Assembly (NCBI GenBank): GCA_029351405.1
Contig: GCA_029351405.1_4841.1
DNA from: Escherichia coli
GTDB lineage: Bacteria; Pseudomonadota; Gammaproteobacteria; Enterobacterales; Enterobacteriaceae
Strand: one strand, 5' to 3'
Length of the DNA: 64,000 nucleotides
The notes beneath the pieces were generated by a model, which made no database searches, had not been told where the DNA came from, and worked only from the letters and a program-made list of their open reading frames with translations. The first letter of the stretch is position 1. Each line of letters opens with the position of its first letter. A program made the translations under genes and the position numbers. Below, one piece after another: positions 135 through 62,491 of the stretch.

Positions 135-1853
135 CTAAACCTCAAACACGGCATCAGTGAACCAAGCGGGGAAGAACTCTGGGTTGCGCATCATCAGTGA
201 TTCAAAAGAAGAATCAAGGATGTACGTCGCAGCCCAGTCATTCACGCCCCTGACCGAACGCCCACACATCTGAACGATACGCAGTACCGCCATCCTGAAG
301 TACGCCGATGGGTCCACACTGTTGACGTGGGCCACCAGAGGATCACCAAGGTAATCGTATGGCACCTTGATCAAGATCTGAAATCGACTATAATCGCCTT
401 TGAAGTCATACCCCTCTTCCATGGCCGGACTGGCGATGACACAAGGCGTCTTCGTCCTGAACGCGTGTTCCATGATGTCCATCAGAGCCTTACGGGTACG
501 AGGAACGTGAATCATATTCCGGTACTTACTGAACTTTTGTAGAGCCAGGGCGCGGTCATAACTCACGGTGTGGATGATACCAGACTGCCCAGGGTGGAAT
601 GCGATGATTTCATCCACGTATTCGGCCAGCTTCTTCATCTCATAGTCACCCATGTTCGCCGTCATCTTCATGATGGGCATGTAGTTGACTTTCCGGTTCT
701 CAATCGGGATAGGATTGCCGATCTGTATCTTGTGGTACTCACCCTCACGGATACCCAGTGACCGGGCGTACGAGTCAATCCCACAAATGGTCGCCGACAT
801 GTGAACGTGGTAGTCACCCTTGCGGAACAGACCGAACTGGGATACATCAGAGGCGATGACAGGCTTGAACTGAATCATACCCTTGTCCTTCTCCTGTACG
901 ATGAAAGTGCTGGCGTTGGTCTGCCCCATGATACCACAGTAGTCGCTGAGGTTGTGAAGAGTATCAATAATATCAGACAGCTTCATCACCTGGGCTTCAG
1001 TCAGGCGCTCGTCTTCTACCAGTTCCTCAAGAGTTTCCAGCAGGGATTCAACCTTGCCGTGTAGTTCATCAAATATCGCATGCATCTCACCAGACAGGGA
1101 ATACAGCTTGCCCAATTCATAGTTCTCTGTGCGCCTGATGATATCCTTGATGGTCTCCACGATAGGCACTCCCTCGGGGATCGTAAGCAGCCCTTCCACA
1201 GCCTTTGTGCTGTATTCCATGATAGTATGCTCTAGGAGCGTAGAGGGCATTTTATGACACTCGTCAAGGATCAGCATATCGGCGCGGTTTTCCGGCTTCA
1301 TACAGATCGTCGTGCACATCTCCACCATCATGGCGGCGTTGGTGCAGCGCAAGGAGGAGACGTCGGTCCACTGTCGACGCGCCTGAACATATGGGCAACG
1401 ATTCTTACTACAGTGGCCATCACGGCATGCCATACGACACTGAATGGCGTTGTAGTATAGGTCGGGACTGATGTGGCAACGATAGTTCTTCTTGCCCTTC
1501 AGGATGTCTATCGCCACGGCTTTCTCTGCTGCATACTGATCCTGTAAACCTTTGGTCGGCGTCGTGATAGACGTGCGAAACTGACCATACGGGTTGTGCT
1601 CAAGAACCAAATGGCGAAGCACGTTATGGATGGTAGTGCCGATGAGGGATTTACCCACACCAGTCGGAGCCTCGATGATCACGTGTTTGAATTTCTTATT
1701 CACAAGGGCATCAATGGCTTCAACGATGCACTCCATCTGGCCGGGGTTGGCGGTGTCATACGGGAAGAACTCAGTGGCAAGAGACTTGATGCGGTCTATG
1801 CTGACTGGTCCGACGCCGTCAAGCGCCTTGGTATATTGGTTGAATGCTGTCAC
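135..1853 (-). CDS. DinG/XPD (Rad3)-family SF2 helicase with Fe-S cluster domain
   Basis: 572-aa ORF; Walker A APTGVGKS, DECH (DEAH-type) box, four-Cys cluster (CHISPD...CRMACRDGHCSKNRCPY) typical of the XPD/DinG Fe-S domain; GTG start with AGGAGG RBS. Confidence 0.75.
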   Translation of the reverse strand: MTAFNQYTKALDGVGPVSIDRIKSLATEFFPYDTANPGQMECIVEAIDALVNKKFKHVIIEAPTGVGKSLIGTTIHNVLRHLVLEHNPYGQFRTSITTPTKGLQDQYAAEKAVAIDILKGKKNYRCHISPDLYYNAIQCRMACRDGHCSKNRCPYVQARRQWTDVSSLRCTNAAMMVEMCTTICMKPENRADMLILDECHKMPSTLLEHTIMEYSTKAVEGLLTIPEGVPIVETIKDIIRRTENYELGKLYSLSGEMHAIFDELHGKVESLLETLEELVEDERLTEAQVMKLSDIIDTLHNLSDYCGIMGQTNASTFIVQEKDKGMIQFKPVIASDVSQFGLFRKGDYHVHMSATICGIDSYARSLGIREGEYHKIQIGNPIPIENRKVNYMPIMKMTANMGDYEMKKLAEYVDEIIAFHPGQSGIIHTVSYDRALALQKFSKYRNMIHVPRTRKALMDIMEHAFRTKTPCVIASPAMEEGYDFKGDYSRFQILIKVPYDYLGDPLVAHVNSVDPSAYFRMAVLRIVQMCGRSVRGVNDWAATYILDSSFESLMMRNPEFFPAWFTDAVFEV

Positions 1854-1907
1854 TTTCTTCCTCCTATGGGATTCGCCTATAGTTTACCCGATCCCCAAGA
1901 ACGAAAA

Positions 1908-1930
1908 AGCCGGAGTACAATGCTCCGGCT
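1908..1930 (-). terminator. intrinsic terminator hairpin
   Basis: AGCCGGAG-TACAATG-CTCCGGCT with T-runs on both sides, downstream of the HU-like gene. Confidence 0.55.
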
Positions 1931-1981: not shown

Positions 1982-2260
1982 TTACTTGCCGTTGGCAGCG
2001 TTCTTCAGACCTTCGCCCACTTTGAATTTCACAACGTTTTTCGCCGCGATCTGAATGGTCTGGCCGTTCAGAGGGTTGCGACCTTCACGCGCTTCTTGGT
2101 GTTTCACTTCGAACGCACCGAAGCCGACCAGCTGTACAGATGCGCCTGCAGCAACTGCAGTCTTAACACCGTCGATAAAGGATGCCACTACTTTCTCCGC
2201 TTCGCCTTTGGTGATATTCTGGGTCGAAGCAATGTGGGCAACAAATTCAGTACGATTCAT
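1982..2260 (-). CDS. HU/IHF-family histone-like DNA-binding protein
   Basis: 92 aa; HU signature GFGxFEV...REGRNPxxGQ and overall length/composition of bacterial HU; GGAG RBS. Confidence 0.85.
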   Translation of the reverse strand: MNRTEFVAHIASTQNITKGEAEKVVASFIDGVKTAVAAGASVQLVGFGAFEVKHQEAREGRNPLNGQTIQIAAKNVVKFKVGEGLKNAANGK

Positions 2261-2353
2261 CTAGATTTCTCCGTTGGGTTAATGTTTACTTTCATGTTCA
2301 CTACAAGAGGACTACAGCTTACCTAACAAAACATATTGAATAAAGCGAAATTA

Positions 2354-2602
2354 TTAGCCTTTCACCACGTCTTCAGTCGTTATCGTGCCATAACATCCAC
2401 AGCGTTCACAAATCACTCTGACGCAAGGCTTAAAAGTCTGAATATTAGACACAGGAACGTTCACCGCCTTTGAAGAAACCTGCATTTCGCGGACTTTAAC
2501 CCGTTGTTCGGCCAGGCGCTCATCGTCCAAGAAGGTGATCGTCTTGTGAGGACAACGCATTGACGATTCACCAACCCAGATTATTGCCATGTTGGGACTC
2601 AT
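2354..2602 (-). CDS. small Cys-rich (zinc-ribbon-like) protein
   Basis: 82 aa, CxH ... CxxCxCxG cysteine pattern; strong GGAGG RBS. Confidence 0.45.
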   Translation of the reverse strand: MSPNMAIIWVGESSMRCPHKTITFLDDERLAEQRVKVREMQVSSKAVNVPVSNIQTFKPCVRVICERCGCYGTITTEDVVKG

Positions 2603-2877
2603 GATTTGACCTCCGATTTGGAGATTAACGATTCCATCTCCTGACGACCAATGACAGTCTCAACTTTGTCTTCTTCAACCATCATTTCATTCAGAAGATC
2701 GTACCCCAGGACTTGTACACCAAAAGACTTTTTGTTCAGTTCTGCCTCAATATTGAGAACTCGCTGAACCGTCAGGCCACCGGAAGAGGACGGTACTGGA
2801 TAGAAGGCGGAACGCACTTGAACACACCCATTTACGCTGTAACGAACCAGCAAGACATCACACCATACACCAGCCAT
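2599..2877 (-). CDS. hypothetical protein
   Basis: 92-aa ORF, ATG with GGAGGTG RBS, tightly packed between neighbours. Confidence 0.45.
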   Translation of the reverse strand: MAGVWCDVLLVRYSVNGCVQVRSAFYPVPSSSGGLTVQRVLNIEAELNKKSFGVQVLGYDLLNEMMVEEDKVETVIGRQEMESLISKSEVKS

Positions 2878-5595: not shown

Positions 5596-6045
5596 TCAGA
5601 AACGGGTATCGCTGACCGTTCTGTATCGCACACCCTGAAACTGTTTAGCGAGTTTAACAAATTCCATCGCTGGTAAATCAACTTTGTAGACCTTCATGCG
5701 CTGTTTGCCGTCCATGTTCAACGCAGCGACAAATCGGTGTGAGCCGTCAACAACGTAATTGTCAGAAGACACCCAAACCCGACCCATAGGTTTCTTATTT
5801 CTGATGTTCTTCATGATCTTCCAGACCTTCATCTTGTTGATTTCGTTCTGGGTAAGACGAAGCATTTTGATGGGCACTTGCGCAGCATCTATGGACACGC
5901 CGTTGTCTTCAAGATATTTGTGAAAATCTTCTTGTTTGTCGGCATCGATTTGCGGCATAGAAGAACGAGAAAGCCCGAGGTTCCCAACAGGAATCCTCAG
6001 GCCGTTAATGATGTTCAACCAGTCAATAAAAGATGTAAGGAACAT
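5596..6045 (-). CDS. ParB-N-like (DGxHR motif) domain protein
   Basis: 149 aa; VVDGSHRFVAA resembles the ParB/sulfiredoxin-fold DGxHR motif; GAGGTG RBS. Confidence 0.4.
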   Translation of the reverse strand: MFLTSFIDWLNIINGLRIPVGNLGLSRSSMPQIDADKQEDFHKYLEDNGVSIDAAQVPIKMLRLTQNEINKMKVWKIMKNIRNKKPMGRVWVSSDNYVVDGSHRFVAALNMDGKQRMKVYKVDLPAMEFVKLAKQFQGVRYRTVSDTRF

Positions 6046-7878: not shown

Positions 7879-8202
7879 TTATTTGCGCAGGGCAACTACG
7901 AGTTCAGCGAGTTCACCCATGGTCGGGTCATCACCTTTACTGCCCAGCCAACCATCGTCGATTTCGACCTGAAACTCTTCTTCGAGGTCCATTACAATTT
8001 CGATAGCGTCCAGTTCATCACCGCCGAGGTCTTTCTTGGTACGGAGGCCAGCCAGCTTGTCCAGGGCGTCCTCGTTCTGAGATGCCACGTCGTCCAGCAA
8101 TTTGCGCTTGTCATCGTCACGCCACAGATCCAAGTTCAGATTGTCAGTGGCGTACTGAGCCAGATGACGCATGACTTCAACATATGTTGGTTTGCTGCTC
8201 AT
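7879..8202 (-). CDS. acyl carrier protein-like protein (conserved Ser replaced by Glu)
   Basis: 107 aa; KDLGGDELDAIEIVMDLEEEFQVEIDD aligns with the ACP helix II region ([28 protein letters not shown]) but reads DEL instead of DSL; GGGAGA RBS. Confidence 0.7.
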   Translation of the reverse strand: MSSKPTYVEVMRHLAQYATDNLNLDLWRDDDKRKLLDDVASQNEDALDKLAGLRTKKDLGGDELDAIEIVMDLEEEFQVEIDDGWLGSKGDDPTMGELAELVVALRK

Positions 8203-20127: not shown

Positions 20128-20317
20128 TTGTATGTATCCTCAAAATATAGTGGGGGTTCAAGTCATGTTTGACGCAATCTAGTATCGCTGTGTTTTGCTT
20201 ATAGAACAAGTGGCAAATTGCGCTACGCGTTATTAATAAATGCCTTCGGCATTTATGGACTTTATTAAAGATAATAACCTTTATTAATCCTATTCGCTTC
20301 GCTCATAAAACAAATAC

Positions 20318-20344
20318 TCGTTGTTCGCTAACGCTCACAACTCG
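20318..20344 (+). repeat. 27-nt conserved intergenic element, copy 1
   Basis: TCGTTGTTCGCTAACGCTCACAACTCG, followed by TATAAT; 126 nt upstream of the plus-strand gene at 20470. Confidence 0.5.
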
Positions 20345-48505: not shown

Positions 48506-50455
48506 TTATCCAATAACAGTCCCATCAGTAAGGCTTGTTGGCGGGGAACCAAATTTACGTACTAACTGATTTGATGAGTTTTTAAACAAATAGAATTTAC
48601 TACCAAACTCCATACATGGAATACCCGTTCCCGTGGTAGTAGCCAGACCCATGTTGGTAGCGATGTATGCTTTGCCATCTAAATTGATGGCGTTATTAAC
48701 GTTGTTTACACCGTGATAGTTACTAATAGAGCTTACCCAATCTGATGCTGTGGTTTTCGGGTTAATAACGTTCATAGCATTCGAAGATGCGGTTAGCGTG
48801 TCTATACGTAAGTTATCAATAGTAAATTTCCCGTAGTTGTCTATGGTGAATGCAGTTGCTGGATTACGTATATCAATGTTACGCCCTACAAACTCACTAA
48901 TGTTCTTTATTCTCGGAGCGGTTTTAACTCCGGTCAAGGTGCAAGTATAGTTCTCGACTTTGACGACCCCAAAGGTATCTCCTCCGTTAGTCGTGTTTAT
49001 ACTGAGAGCATTCTGCACGTTTTCACTTGTTACATTTAAAATTTTAGCATCAATTACGCCAGAGTTCTCAATATTAACGTCAGCGTTAGCACCGTTTATG
49101 TACACACCATCGAGTGTAGCTTTACGAGTAAGTGGAGAGTTGCTCGGATACATGCTAATGATAACCCCCATCGTATTATGACGAACTGATGGGTTATCTT
49201 CATCCTCTACCGTATTCTGGTGATAGATTCTTGTACCTTGCCCTATGTACACGTCATAGCTTCCAGATAGACGCATACCCCACTTGCCTTTCTTACTCCC
49301 GATATTGTTGCAATATGCACCGAGAACAACCCCAGACGATATCTGGAATACAGGGCTGCCGTCAGAATTGTCTTCAGAGGTCATCAATATTGGCTCTCTC
49401 CAGCGGGATACCTGATATGACCCGCCGATTACCTTGAAGTTAGCGGTACTGTAGAAGGCCATGCCGTTACGGTCAGTATCATAAGTGCGACAACGCGTCA
49501 CCTGCACATCAGTACAGAACTTAAACATTATCCCTGGCTGGCCGCCACGAGAACCATAAGCATTAATTACCGAGCAGTCAGTTAATTTAATGCGGGTGGC
49601 CTGGTGAAACCAGAAACCATTAAATGTTGACGTATCTACTGTCGTGTCCCACGTCACATTAGACTTATTACCATCAATAACAAGTCCATTTACGATGATA
49701 TCATAATGCTCAGGATTACCTGCGTCATAAGTATAAGCCTTACGGTTAGTTATCCCGGTGGAAATGCTTGGGTAGTGACCGGGTTTTAATTTTAGCGTAC
49801 ATCCATAAGCATTAATTGTTGTGCCAGGCTTAACAATTAAAGGCGTACCATCCCAGTAAAGTGTACGGGCTGGGAAAGTTACATGTGTTGCTCCAGAGTT
49901 TAGTGCCTCTTGTATAGCTGCCGTGTGGTCAGTTGCCGATTCCATTGATGAAGTAATGAACATGTCAACAGATACATATACACCATAAGTGACACCGACG
50001 CTAACCCACGCCCCTAATTTAATCTCACCTGTGCTATTTGGGGTTGAACCAGGGTAAACAATTTTAGGTAACTCACCATCCCAGCGATATTTACCACCCC
50101 CATGGGTAAGTATTTCATTCTTAGTGTTAATGGTAGCACCTGTAATAAAGGAACCAGTAACAGTTACAAACTCTTCTCGTTCTACAGCCAGTTCACCCAA
50201 ATCAACAGTACCCTCAGAATGAACCAGGACTGCTTGCGCACTAAGGCTAACAGCAGTGGTTCCTACTGGAAGTACAGGTAATGAGTAAGCACGCTGAGTA
50301 GCCTTATCATAGATTACTTTATAACCACCCAAGTCTACACCTACAGAAAAATAGACTACTTCGTTCTGCTTAACACCAAACTTACGGGCAATGGCTTGCT
50401 TATTGGTAAGAATACCAGTAGAGCCTTTACCGCCTTGTGAGAACATTTCGTTCAT
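48506..50455 (-). CDS. tailspike protein (649 aa) with beta-helix-type repeats
   Basis: N-terminus MNEMFSQGGKGSTGILTNKQAIARKFGV; Asn/Gly/Thr/Val-rich coils in the body; hairpin terminator downstream; AT-rich distal part. Confidence 0.7.
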   Translation of the reverse strand: MNEMFSQGGKGSTGILTNKQAIARKFGVKQNEVVYFSVGVDLGGYKVIYDKATQRAYSLPVLPVGTTAVSLSAQAVLVHSEGTVDLGELAVEREEFVTVTGSFITGATINTKNEILTHGGGKYRWDGELPKIVYPGSTPNSTGEIKLGAWVSVGVTYGVYVSVDMFITSSMESATDHTAAIQEALNSGATHVTFPARTLYWDGTPLIVKPGTTINAYGCTLKLKPGHYPSISTGITNRKAYTYDAGNPEHYDIIVNGLVIDGNKSNVTWDTTVDTSTFNGFWFHQATRIKLTDCSVINAYGSRGGQPGIMFKFCTDVQVTRCRTYDTDRNGMAFYSTANFKVIGGSYQVSRWREPILMTSEDNSDGSPVFQISSGVVLGAYCNNIGSKKGKWGMRLSGSYDVYIGQGTRIYHQNTVEDEDNPSVRHNTMGVIISMYPSNSPLTRKATLDGVYINGANADVNIENSGVIDAKILNVTSENVQNALSINTTNGGDTFGVVKVENYTCTLTGVKTAPRIKNISEFVGRNIDIRNPATAFTIDNYGKFTIDNLRIDTLTASSNAMNVINPKTTASDWVSSISNYHGVNNVNNAINLDGKAYIATNMGLATTTGTGIPCMEFGSKFYLFKNSSNQLVRKFGSPPTSLTDGTVIG

Positions 50456-62337: not shown

Positions 62338-62464
62338 CCAACGGGAATCAAAACGCTCGCGCGCGTTTAATTTATTCGAATATAACTCGCGAGGGGGCTG
62401 ACGCCCTCGCTCGTAACACCGCCCTATGCGGGCAGCACCATTCCACAGCCATGGAGGCTGCTTC

Positions 62465-62491
62465 TCGTTGTTCGTTAACACTCACAACTCG
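62465..62491 (+). repeat. 27-nt conserved intergenic element, copy 2
   Basis: TCGTTGTTCGTTAACACTCACAACTCG (2 mismatches to copy 1); 165 nt upstream of the plus-strand gene at 62656. Confidence 0.5.

What the first reader, a model, noticed from the sequence alone, without database searches (positions are those of the whole stretch)
1982..2260. Phage-encoded HU-like protein, possibly a binder of modified phage DNA
A bona fide HU-family protein is encoded next to the DinG-type helicase with its own RBS and terminator. Phage HU homologues are uncommon; the best-known one, SPO1 TF1, preferentially binds hydroxymethyluracil-containing phage DNA. ViI-like phages are known to carry hypermodified thymidines, so this protein may be a genome-specific nucleoid protein.
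Basis: partly seen in the sequence, partly recalled or inferred. Interest (0 to 1): 0.45.

Follow-up and report, generated by a model that had tools for sequence, protein, structure and literature searches.

The report
Phage-encoded HU DNA-bending protein
This is a real gene for a small HU-type DNA-bending protein that enterobacterial ViI-like (Ackermannviridae) phages carry next to a helicase gene. It is already annotated in hundreds of phage genomes, and whether it prefers the phage's chemically modified DNA is plausible but untested.

Summary
Window 1982-2260 (minus strand) encodes a 92-aa full-length HU/IHF-family protein (Pfam PF00216, E 6e-30; AlphaFold pLDDT 95.9, canonical HU fold). 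It has a GGAG ribosome-binding site and a covariation-supported terminator, and sits just upstream of a DinG/Rad3-type helicase.

The window is an Agtrevirus (Ackermannviridae), 97.7% identical to Escherichia phage RPN242. The protein is 100% identical to annotated proteins of phages ZQ1 and PC3. About 270 Ackermannviridae genomes carry it at 74-100% identity (48% in Erwinia phage Bue1). It is under purifying selection (dN/dS about 0.1) and a published table lists it as a core gene.

- The lineage does carry 5-NeOmdU-modified DNA, but the modification genes lie outside this window.
- The DNA-binding arm is canonical HU (R61-N62-P63, GFG), not TF1-type, and there is no C-terminal tail.
- It is 38% identical to TF1, against 40-43% for host-type HUs and 53% for the nearest cellular HUs.
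- Only two body positions resemble TF1 (A26 with R3, and E83).
- HU-like genes occur in SPO1-like phages, SP10 and Vibrio ViI-like phages, but not in hypermodified phages M6 or PhiW-14.
- Two virion proteomes do not list it.

Verdict: an ordinary, already-annotated gene with an untested hypothesis attached.

The parts
1982..2260 (-). HU-family gene (92 aa, including the stop codon)
   Evidence: ORF list. Pfam PF00216 E 6.1e-30 over the full length. phrog_379. AlphaFold pLDDT 95.9 with an HU fold. Foldseek TM 0.8-0.89 to HU/IHF structures. dN/dS 0.10-0.14.
2269..2272 (-). Shine-Dalgarno GGAG, 8 nt upstream of the ATG
   Evidence: Read. Conserved as GGAG in 7 of 8 aligned phages (Bue1 differs).
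2296..2346 (-). Upstream DNA block of about 50 nt, conserved across genera: GCTTTATTCAATA..TTGTTAGGTAAGCTGTAGTCCTCTTGTAGTGAAC. Probably a promoter or regulator site; its function is unresolved.
   Evidence: Most columns are invariant in 8 phages down to Erwinia phage Bue1, while the flanking DNA is not conserved. No sigma-70 consensus was found. No conserved RNA structure (-3.3 kcal/mol, no covariation). The block contains one copy of the intergenic palindrome TTATTSAATAA at 2333-2343 and GGTAAGCTGTA at 2313-2323.
1897..1929 (-). Intrinsic terminator ending the HU transcription unit (hairpin plus T-run; the hairpin is also terminator-like on the + strand)
   Evidence: hairpin 1906-1932. Compensatory stem changes and a conserved TTTTTCGTT tail across genera.
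1878..1888 (-). GGTAAACTATA motif between the terminator and the helicase start. Among intergenic regions of the window it recurs only upstream of HU (one further match, at 48727-48737, lies inside a coding sequence).
   Evidence: Conserved across genera.
135..1853 (-). DinG/Rad3-type helicase gene, the conserved downstream neighbour
   Evidence: PF13307 Helicase_C_2, ResIII and DEAD hits. phrog_2488 E 3e-260. The HU-then-helicase order is kept in Erwinia phage Bue1.

Best explanation
The gene encodes a canonical HU-type architectural protein that the phage supplies for its own DNA transactions inside the infected cell.

By homology it should form a homodimer. Two beta-ribbon arms would embrace the minor groove and kink DNA through Pro63, with R58 and R61 on the arms. 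This binding mode reads DNA shape and flexibility rather than major-groove chemistry. It should therefore tolerate the bulky, cationic 5-(2-aminoethoxy)methyl groups that this phage lineage places on thymine C5 in the major groove.

The gene sits in a long leftward block. It is followed by a DinG-like helicase gene in the window and, further downstream in the 97.7%-identical phage RPN242, by RNase H, the late sigma factor and the gp46/47-type nuclease genes. It has its own conserved upstream element and its own terminator, and it lacks the motif found upstream of structural genes. The most likely role is bending and compacting replicating phage DNA to assist replication, recombination and possibly late transcription, at a time when the host nucleoid and host HU supply are being taken over.

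Shown here: family membership, fold, arm motifs, single copy, conservation across the family, purifying selection, synteny and the terminator. Inferred: dimerisation, minor-groove binding, pre-late expression and the process it serves. A strong preference for modified DNA is neither required by nor excluded by this explanation.
For: - Full-length PF00216 match.
- High-confidence HU fold: helices 3-14 and 18-37, beta arms 42-81, helix 83-89. The best structural matches are HU and IHF, including DNA-bound Anabaena HU (TM 0.87).
- Invariant or near-invariant G46-F47-G48, R58, R61-N62-P63 and G82.
- pI 9.7 and net charge +3.7, the same as E. coli HU.
- Present at 74-100% identity in about 270 Ackermannviridae records, one copy each, at 48% in Erwinia phage Bue1, and listed as a core gene (PMC10892097).
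- dN/dS 0.10-0.14.
- Conserved position upstream of the helicase, even in Erwinia phage Bue1.
- In RPN242 the same block continues with RNase H, the late sigma factor and the recombination nuclease subunits.
- Not listed among virion proteins of LIMEstone1, whose HU is 97% identical (PMC3296691), or of Sajous1 (PMC10892097).
- The candidate late-promoter motif CACTAAATAC lies upstream of structural genes but not upstream of HU.
Against: - No experiment on this protein was found in the searchable literature.
- Timing of expression is inferred from motifs only. No recognisable sigma-70 promoter was found, so transcription may simply read through from upstream genes.
- R55, a conserved arm arginine of cellular HUs, is Q in the whole clade, and K83 is E. 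Binding properties may therefore differ from textbook HU.
- The clade is separated by a gap from all cellular HUs found (at least 72% identity within the clade, at most 53% outside it). That fits some specialisation.
- E. coli already has abundant HU, so why a phage copy is kept under selection is not explained by a purely generic role.
Confidence: 0.55

Rival explanations
1. TF1-like reading. The protein selectively binds the phage's own 5-NeOmdU/hmU-derived DNA over host DNA. It would act as a genome-specific chromatin protein that marks or organises phage DNA, as TF1 does on hmU DNA of SPO1.
For: - The lineage carries 5-NeOmdU at about 40% of T (PMC5889632). Close relatives of this window encode the kinase and transferase.
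- TF1 binds SPO1 DNA but not B. subtilis DNA (PMC10531801).
- HU-fold genes turn up in several hmU-lineage groups. TF1 occurs in SPO1-like phages next to the DNA polymerase gene. SP10 gp190 lies between the dUMP-hydroxymethylase/kinase genes and the polymerase gene (E 2.4e-21). Enterobacterial Ackermannviridae carry the gene studied here. Vibrio ViI-like phage D509 has a divergent HU-like gene at a different locus (E 1.9e-11). The background is about 1% of phage records.
- Like TF1, the clade has no acidic residue at position 26 (A, N or K) together with a basic residue 3. In the surface salt-bridge model this frees residue 3 to contact flanking DNA and lengthens the binding site (as described in PMC2528193; residues).
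- E83 and the C-terminal GE(S/G)LKxAAxG also resemble TF1.
Against: - The arm is HU-type, not TF1-type: R61 where TF1 has F61 and SP10 gp190 has Y; GFG rather than GFL; no C-terminal extension.
- Overall it is no closer to TF1 (38%) than to B. subtilis HU (43%), E. coli HU (40-41%) or Flavobacteriia HU (53%).
- The hypermodified phages M6 (5-NedU) and PhiW-14 (putrescinylthymine) have no HU-family ORF (best E 0.55). Many HU-encoding phages, for example 94 Ralstonia records, do not appear among the hosts of this kinase type.
- The positive cases represent only two or three independent lineages, so the enrichment is not statistically secure.
- From my own knowledge: TF1's preference is attributed to the flexibility of hmU DNA. 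Whether 5-NeOmdU DNA, where only about 40% of T is replaced, is similarly flexible is unknown.
Confidence: 0.25
2. Host-takeover reading. The phage HU competes with, or forms heterodimers with, host HU-alpha/HU-beta, so as to derange the host nucleoid, host transcription or HU-dependent host processes rather than to serve phage DNA.
For: - The dimerisation body is conserved in HU style, and identity to E. coli HU-alpha/beta is 40-41%.
- The gene does not carry the late-class motif.
- Phages are known to target host nucleoid proteins. T7 5.5 against H-NS is reviewed in PMC6606824.
Against: - There is no direct evidence.
- The protein keeps a complete DNA-binding arm under purifying selection, which a simple poison subunit would not need.
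- The gene keeps the same neighbourhood across phages infecting hosts from Erwinia to Klebsiella, whose HUs differ.
Confidence: 0.1
3. Site-specific (IHF-like) factor. The protein recognises a defined phage DNA element, such as the intergenic palindrome TTATTSAATAA or the conserved block upstream of its own gene, and regulates transcription or an origin or packaging site.
For: - The palindrome TTATTSAATAA is enriched (45 matches against 17 expected at up to 2 mismatches). Its best copies are intergenic, and one lies upstream of the HU gene.
- A roughly 50-nt block upstream of HU is nearly invariant across genera.
- TF1 itself has preferred sites on SPO1 DNA.
Against: - Identity to IHF subunits is only 28-30%.
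- There is a single gene per genome rather than an alpha/beta pair.
- Nothing links the motif to this protein. The motif sits inside or beside sigma-70/T4-early-like promoters and may simply be a promoter element.
Confidence: 0.07
4. Virion DNA-condensing protein packaged with the genome.
For: It is small and basic (pI 9.7). Some viruses package histone-like proteins; ASFV pA104R appears among the fold matches.
Against: - It is absent from the 39 virion proteins of LIMEstone1, where the smallest listed protein is 13 kDa, and from the Sajous1 virion list.
- There is no late-promoter motif upstream.
- Caveat: small lysine- and arginine-rich proteins are easily missed by tryptic mass spectrometry.
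Confidence: 0.03

Closest known systems
Bacterial HU (E. coli HupA/HupB, B. subtilis HBsu, B. stearothermophilus HU)
   Same: Same Pfam family over the full length, the same 90-92 aa size, the same predicted fold, and the same arm motifs (GFG46-48, R58, R61-N62-P63). pI is 9.7, the same as the E. coli HUs (9.6-9.7); HBsu is lower at 9.0.
   Different: Only 40-43% identical. Clade-specific Q55 (HU has R55), E83 (HU has K83), A26 (HU has D/E26), R3 (HU has K3) and an acidic EAEK at 20-23. It is encoded by a virulent phage as a single gene with its own terminator.
TF1 of Bacillus phage SPO1 (and the TF1-like gp190 of phage SP10)
   Same: A phage-encoded HU-family protein in a phage lineage whose thymine is replaced through the dUMP-hydroxymethylase route. 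Non-acidic residue 26 with a basic residue 3, E83, and a similar C-terminal helix GE(S/G)LKxAAxG.
   Different: 38% identity. R61 rather than an aromatic residue (F in TF1, Y in SP10). GFG rather than GFL or GLM. No C-terminal extension (92 against 99 and about 106 aa). It neighbours a helicase rather than the DNA polymerase gene. TF1's preference for hmU DNA and its essentiality are experimentally shown (cited); nothing is known for this protein.
Integration host factor (IhfA/IhfB)
   Same: Same fold. The top sequence hits in the PDB include single-chain IHF, and TM is 0.83-0.89.
   Different: 28-30% identity. One gene rather than an alpha/beta pair. No evidence of site specificity.
Other phage HU homologues (phrog_379; e.g. 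SPbeta YonN, and Ralstonia, Burkholderia and Flavobacterium phage HUs)
   Same: Members of the same PHROG and Pfam family.
   Different: At most 51% identical. They occur in phages not known to modify thymine and not found in the search for this hmU DNA kinase type.
Divergent HU-like protein VPHD509_0204 of Vibrio ViI-like phage D509
   Same: An HU-profile match (E 1.9e-11) in a ViI-like genome that also encodes the hmU DNA kinase homologue and a thymidylate-synthase-like gene.
   Different: It sits at a different locus, next to a sigma-factor-like gene and tRNAs rather than the helicase. It lacks GFG and RNP (it has AGI and AYPIP). There is no BLASTP match to the window protein. It is probably non-orthologous.

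Membership tests
HU/IHF family (Pfam PF00216, 'type II DNA-binding proteins') | Full-length match to the family profile above the curated threshold | tested here: met
   103.8 bits against a cut-off of 22.4, E 6.1e-30, residues 1-90 against profile 1-90/90. phrog_379 E 4e-36.
HU/IHF family (Pfam PF00216, 'type II DNA-binding proteins') | Fold: two N-terminal helices, a beta-sheet with an extended beta-ribbon arm, and a short C-terminal helix | tested here: met
   AlphaFold2 pLDDT 95.9: H3-14, H18-37, strands 42-81, H83-89. Foldseek gives probability 1.00 and TM 0.8-0.89 to HU and IHF chains.
HU/IHF family (Pfam PF00216, 'type II DNA-binding proteins') | Arm and hinge motifs: G46-F47-G48, R58, R61-N62-P63 (the intercalating proline) | tested here: met
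   All are present and conserved in the clade. The exception is R55, which is Q in the whole clade.
HU/IHF family (Pfam PF00216, 'type II DNA-binding proteins') | Forms a dimer that binds and bends double-stranded DNA | not testable with these tools
   Only a monomer model could be built. Needs gel filtration or crosslinking plus EMSA or cyclisation assays.
TF1 subtype (SPO1 TF1-like phage proteins) | Aromatic residue at arm position 61 in place of arginine | tested here: not met
   R61 in the window protein and all Ackermannviridae orthologues. F61 in the TF1 orthologue of phage Goe2, Y in SP10 gp190. That residue 61 matters for TF1 binding is from my own knowledge of the Geiduschek laboratory's mutagenesis work, which I did not read here.
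TF1 subtype (SPO1 TF1-like phage proteins) | C-terminal extension beyond the HU core (99 aa) | tested here: not met
   92 aa, ending two residues after the HU core.
TF1 subtype (SPO1 TF1-like phage proteins) | Closer in sequence to TF1 than to cellular HUs | tested here: not met
   38% to TF1, against 43% to HBsu, 40-41% to E. coli HU and 53% to Flavobacteriia HU. In the PDB search, TF1 scores E 4e-11 and Bacillus HU 8e-20.
TF1 subtype (SPO1 TF1-like phage proteins) | No K3-D26 surface salt bridge (non-acidic residue 26), which is linked to a long binding site | tested here: met
   R3 with A26 (N or K in some orthologues), as in TF1 (K3 with A26). HBsu, BstHU, HU-alpha, HU-beta and Flavobacteriia HUs have D/E26. 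The model is as summarised in PMC2528193. The consequence for site size was not tested.
TF1 subtype (SPO1 TF1-like phage proteins) | Preferential binding to hmU-type modified DNA | not testable with these tools
   Needs EMSA with modified and unmodified DNA of the same sequence.
TF1 subtype (SPO1 TF1-like phage proteins) | Encoded by a phage whose thymine is replaced through the dUMP-hydroxymethylase pathway | tested here: inconclusive
   No modification gene lies in the window. The 97.7%-identical RPN242 encodes P-loop kinase 2 and aGPT-Pplase2. The kinase is found in 350 phage records, including the close relatives. 5-NeOmdU was shown chemically for ViI, CBA120, CBA6 and 1.255.O, not for an Agtrevirus.
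IHF | Heterodimer of two paralogous subunits | tested here: not met
   One match per Ackermannviridae record. A profile search of the window and of RPN242 60-155 kb finds a single HU ORF. The first 60 kb of RPN242 was not profile-searched.
IHF | Sequence closer to IhfA/IhfB than to HU | tested here: not met
   28-30% identity to IHF subunits against 40-53% to HUs.

The most novel reading that the evidence does not exclude
Phage groups that build their DNA from hydroxymethyl-dUMP have recruited HU-fold proteins independently at least two or three times: TF1 and SP10 gp190 in Herelleviridae, this protein in enterobacterial Ackermannviridae, and a different HU-like gene in Vibrio ViI-like phages. 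The reason would be that a minor-groove, flexibility-sensing architectural protein is what works on major-groove-hypermodified DNA. On this reading the Ackermannviridae protein discriminates 5-NeOmdU phage DNA from host DNA, using a canonical HU arm plus TF1-like body changes (R3/A26, E83, Q55). It would be a self-DNA chromatin protein in an E. coli-tractable system.
Probability: 0.17. Interest if true: 0.55.

Novelty: already known. Interest (0 to 1): 0.27.

Why it matters
As it stands this is a routine, already-annotated core gene of a well-sequenced phage family.

It would matter only if the untested hypothesis proved true. A TF1 analogue in phages of E. coli and Salmonella would give a genetically tractable system for asking how architectural proteins handle hypermodified, partly cationic DNA. 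It might also provide a reagent that distinguishes 5-NeOmdU DNA from ordinary DNA.

This check narrows the hypothesis. The arm is ordinary HU. The candidate specificity determinants are a few body and arm positions (R3/A26, Q55, E83). And a phage HU is not a general requirement of thymidine hypermodification, since M6 and PhiW-14 lack one.

Tried and rejected
1. Sigma-70 promoter scan around the gene found nothing. I tried by eye to fit the conserved upstream block to sigma-70, T4-early (GTTTAC..TATAAT) or T4 MotA-box architectures. None fits convincingly, so I leave it as an unassigned conserved element.
2. Structured RNA leader or autoregulatory hairpin: RNAalifold gave -3.3 kcal/mol with no covariation. 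Rfam gave only sub-threshold noise.
3. 'Vibrio ViI-like phages lack HU, so HU is dispensable for 5-NeOmdU DNA'. This was suggested by tblastn organism counts and by the empty position upstream of the helicase. I rejected it after a profile search of the whole D509 genome found a divergent HU-like ORF elsewhere.
4. Unusual charge as an adaptation to cationic DNA: pI and net charge equal those of E. coli HU.
5. A second HU paralogue that could form a heterodimer. Vi01_008, annotated 'histone family DNA-binding' (167 aa), has no Pfam hit and no homologue in the window. Every Ackermannviridae record listed shows one HU match.
6. Recent capture from the enterobacterial host: rejected, since identity to HupA/HupB is 40-41%, lower than to Firmicute or Flavobacteriia HUs.
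7. Literature searches for any functional, transcriptomic or genetic study of this gene in Ackermannviridae found none. Three papers I wanted were not held.
8. A ParB-like reading of ORF 5596-6045: no Pfam support.
Full report
**What is there.** Window 1982-2260 holds one ORF on the minus strand (ATG at 2260, TAA ending at 1982) of 92 aa: MNRTEFVAHIASTQNITKGEAEKVVASFIDGVKTAVAAGASVQLVGFGAFEVKHQEAREGRNPLNGQTIQIAAKNVVKFKVGEGLKNAANGK. It matches Pfam PF00216 (Bac_DNA_binding) from the first to the last profile position, at 103.8 bits against a cut-off of 22.4 (E 6e-30). It also matches phrog_379 and 36 solved HU, IHF and TF1 chains. An AlphaFold2 model built on 59 homologues has mean pLDDT 95.9 and the textbook HU layout: two helices, a beta sheet with a long arm, and a C-terminal helix. 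Foldseek places it with HU and IHF structures at TM 0.8-0.89, including DNA-bound Anabaena HU.

**Signals around the gene.** A GGAG lies 8 nt before the ATG (2272..2269). On the minus strand, 52 nt after the stop, the hairpin GCCGGAG-N7-CTCCGGC is followed by TTTTTCGTTCTT (1929..1897). The scan tool flagged the same hairpin only on the plus strand. In an alignment of eight phages from different genera, both sides of the stem change together while the T-run stays. That is good evidence for a working terminator.

**The neighbour.** The next gene downstream (135-1853, minus strand) carries the Helicase_C_2 domain typical of DinG/Rad3/XPD helicases, plus ResIII and DEAD hits. The only addition is that everything lies on the minus strand.

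**Where the window comes from.** The first 6 kb is 97.7% identical over its full length to Escherichia phage vB_EcoM-RPN242. It is 91-98% identical to AV101, Ag3, SKML-39 and other Agtrevirus-type Ackermannviridae. The whole window is collinear with RPN242 positions 68,912-134,447.

**The gene is already known.** It corresponds to RPN242_gp099, annotated 'DNA-binding protein'. The protein is 100% identical to annotated proteins of phages ZQ1 and PC3. In other records it is variously named 'DNA-binding protein HU-beta' or 'transcription factor 1'.

**Distribution and conservation.** tblastn finds it in 538 of 50,697 phage records. About 270 of these are at least 60% identical and are Ackermannviridae: Agtrevirus and Limestonevirus at 97-100%, Kuttervirus at about 85%, and the Klebsiella and Serratia groups at 74-77%. 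Every record listed shows a single copy. The more distant Erwinia phage Bue1 has a 48%-identical copy, again directly upstream of the helicase.
- A published comparison of 150 Vi01-like phages lists 'putative DNA binding protein' right after 'putative ATP-dependent helicase' in its core-genome table (PMC10892097).
- dN/dS against four other genera is 0.10-0.14.
- In a search of about 5.8 billion proteins, the clade (at least 72% identity) is separated by a gap from everything else. The nearest cellular proteins found are Flavobacteriia HUs at about 53%. That search is biased by its word index.
- Identity to E. coli HU-alpha and HU-beta is 40-41%, so this is not a recent capture from the host.

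**Is the phage DNA modified?** The literature is clear for the lineage. ViI, CBA120, CBA6 and Vibrio phage 1.255.O replace about 40% of T by 5-(2-aminoethoxy)methyl-dU, and Ag3 and SKML-39 are listed among the phages encoding the hmU DNA kinase (PMC5889632). The pathway enzymes (kinases gp67 and gp243, serine transferase gp247, decarboxylase gp226) were reconstituted (PMC8989533). A 2024 review states that the genes are conserved across the family (PMC11721090). None of these genes is in the window, since tblastn found no hits. RPN242 has 'P-loop nucleotide kinase 2' and 'aGPT pyrophosphorylase clade 2' at 147.8-150.5 kb. The kinase is found in 350 phage records, including the closest relatives. 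Modified DNA in the source phage is thus a strong inference, not something the window shows.

**How TF1-like is it?** I aligned it with its orthologues, TF1 (the orthologue in SPO1-like phage Goe2), B. subtilis and B. stearothermophilus HU, E. coli HU-alpha and HU-beta, and IHF. The cellular sequences were typed from my own knowledge of the UniProt entries.
- *HU-like features:* it keeps all HU hallmarks: G46-F47-G48, R58, R61-N62-P63 and G82.
- *TF1 features it lacks:* the aromatic residue at 61 (F in TF1, Y in SP10 gp190), GFL in place of GFG, and the 9-residue C-terminal tail.
- *Overall identity:* it is 38% identical to TF1, lower than to HBsu (43%). TF1 itself is closest to HBsu (45%). 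The two phage proteins therefore look like independent derivatives of cellular HUs.
- *TF1-like features it has:* two local resemblances exist. Residue 26 is non-acidic (A; N or K in some orthologues) and residue 3 is basic, as in TF1, whereas all cellular HUs compared have D or E at 26. In the surface salt-bridge model, loss of D26 frees residue 3 to contact flanking DNA and lengthens the binding site to about 37 bp in TF1 (as summarised in PMC2528193). The second resemblance is E83 (K in HU) and the C-terminal GE(S/G)LKxAAxG.
- *Clade-specific change:* Q55 replaces the conserved arm arginine R55.
- *Charge:* net charge and pI are the same as for E. coli HU.

**Does HU travel with thymidine hypermodification?** I profile-searched complete genomes with an HMM built from the alignment.

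| Phage (modification) | HU-family ORF? | Evidence |
|---|---|---|
| SPO1-like Goe2 | Yes, TF1, next to the DNA polymerase gene | |
| SP10 (alpha-glutamylthymine) | Yes, TF1-like gp190 (E 2.4e-21), between the thymidylate-synthase-like and kinase genes and the polymerase gene | |
| Vibrio ViI-like D509 | Nothing upstream of its helicase, but a divergent HU-like ORF (E 1.9e-11; lacks GFG and RNP) beside a sigma-factor-like gene and tRNAs | |
| Pseudomonas phage M6 (5-NedU) | None (best E 0.55) | |
| Delftia phage PhiW-14 (putrescinylthymine) | None (best E 0.55) | |

Conversely, many HU-encoding phages (94 Ralstonia records, SPbeta-like Bacillus phages, Burkholderia and Flavobacterium phages) are not among the organisms carrying this kinase type. 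HU-fold genes are therefore suggestively frequent in hmU-lineage myoviruses. But the positive cases amount to two or three independent lineages, the association is neither necessary nor sufficient, and I cannot give it a meaningful P value.

**Expression and location.** Upstream of the gene, a block of about 50 nt (2296-2346) is nearly invariant from Agtrevirus to Bue1, while the DNA further upstream is not conserved. It has no sigma-70 consensus and no conserved RNA fold.
- The block contains one copy of a palindrome, TTATTSAATAA. This motif is enriched in the window (45 matches against 17 expected), and its best copies lie in intergenic regions, often within T4-early-like promoters of the form GTTTACTTC..TATAAT.
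- It also contains GGTAAGCTGTA. Among intergenic regions, a variant of this motif recurs only just upstream of the helicase gene.
- A different motif, CACTAAATAC, precedes structural genes (10 matches against 3.2 expected, nine of the ten on the coding strand). It is absent upstream of HU.
- Neither the LIMEstone1 virion proteome (39 proteins, the smallest 13 kDa; its HU is 97% identical) nor the Sajous1 virion list includes the protein. Small basic proteins are easily missed by mass spectrometry.

I infer a non-late, intracellular protein. This is inference, not measurement.

**Mechanism.** The best-supported account is an ordinary HU mechanism: a dimer with beta arms in the minor groove and proline-induced kinks, which the phage supplies for its own replication, recombination and transcription. 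C5 substituents of pyrimidines project into the major groove. A minor-groove, shape-reading protein is therefore the kind of architectural factor expected to keep working on 5-NeOmdU DNA. That is established structural knowledge of HU-DNA and IHF-DNA complexes applied by inference. Whether the protein goes further and prefers modified DNA, as TF1 does, is open. The arm argues against a TF1-type solution, while the R3/A26, E83 and Q55 changes leave room for altered wrapping. I put 0.55 on the generic architectural role, 0.25 on a real preference for modified DNA, and small weights on host interference, site-specific regulation and virion packaging.

**Novelty.** The feature is already known as an annotation and as a family core gene. 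No functional study turned up in the searchable library. The hypothesis is reasonable and cheap to test by EMSA with three DNA chemistries, but the sequence evidence gathered here makes it neither surprising nor compelling. Interest is low to moderate.

Noticed in passing
window 7879-8202 (-): A 107-aa ORF matches the phosphopantetheine-attachment (acyl carrier protein) domain: PF00550 at 24.8 bits against a cut-off of 20.8, and PF14573 at E 4e-6. That makes it an ACP-like protein in a virulent phage, 5.6 kb upstream of the HU gene. By coincidence or not, the top Foldseek hit of the HU model is a B. subtilis ACP-HU (DBH1) complex model, 9a4h.
   Followed up: no
window, intergenic sites 2333, 7801, 14603, 15903, 26673, 26695, 35283, 35300, 48506, 62591, 63230: The palindromic 11-mer TTATTSAATAA is enriched (45 matches against 17 expected at up to 2 mismatches). 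Its best copies are intergenic, often inside or beside GTTTACTTC..TATAAT (T4-early-like) promoters that follow terminators. It could be a promoter element or an operator for a dimeric regulator.
   Followed up: partly
window 22344, 25542, 31004, 33943, 37293, 41585, 53213, 55393, 58471 (all - strand): The motif CACTAAATAC (10 matches against 3.2 expected) lies upstream of head, tail and baseplate genes. It is a candidate late-promoter consensus for this family. The 2011 genome papers could not define one with the T4 TATAAATA pattern.
   Followed up: partly
window 20317-20343 and 62464-62490 (-): A 27-nt near-identical repeat, GAGTTGTGAGYGTTARCGAACAACGAG (an imperfect inverted repeat), occurs once in each of two of the window's larger intergenic regions (314-342 nt). 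None is expected by chance.
   Followed up: no
window 1878-1888 and 2313-2323 (-): GGTAARCTRTA occurs in intergenic DNA only upstream of the helicase gene and upstream of the HU gene, and both copies are conserved across genera. The two neighbouring genes may share a regulatory signal of a rare class.
   Followed up: partly
L003 6626-7129 (Salmonella phage Vi01, Vi01_008; outside the window): ViI-like phages carry a second gene annotated 'histone family DNA-binding' (167 aa), which a published table lists as core. It has no Pfam match at E up to 0.1 and no homologue in this window. What it is remains unclear.
   Followed up: partly
L029 32537-32809 (Vibrio phage D509, VPHD509_0204): Vibrio ViI-like phages have a very divergent HU-like protein (E 1.9e-11 to an HU profile; AGI instead of GFG, AYPIP instead of GRNP). 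It sits at a different locus from the enterobacterial phages. This is probably an independent acquisition.
   Followed up: partly
L039 16537-16857 (Bacillus phage SP10 gp190): SP10, which has alpha-glutamylthymine DNA, has a TF1-like protein with Y at position 61 and a C-terminal tail. It lies between the thymidylate-synthase-like and hmU-kinase genes and the DNA polymerase gene.
   Followed up: partly
window 2599-2877 (-): The ORF two genes upstream of HU is a full-length member of Pfam DUF7425 (E 9e-46). It belongs to a run of small conserved genes of unknown function (phrog_31251, 5397, 5426, 3828) that lie in the same leftward block as the HU gene.
   Followed up: no
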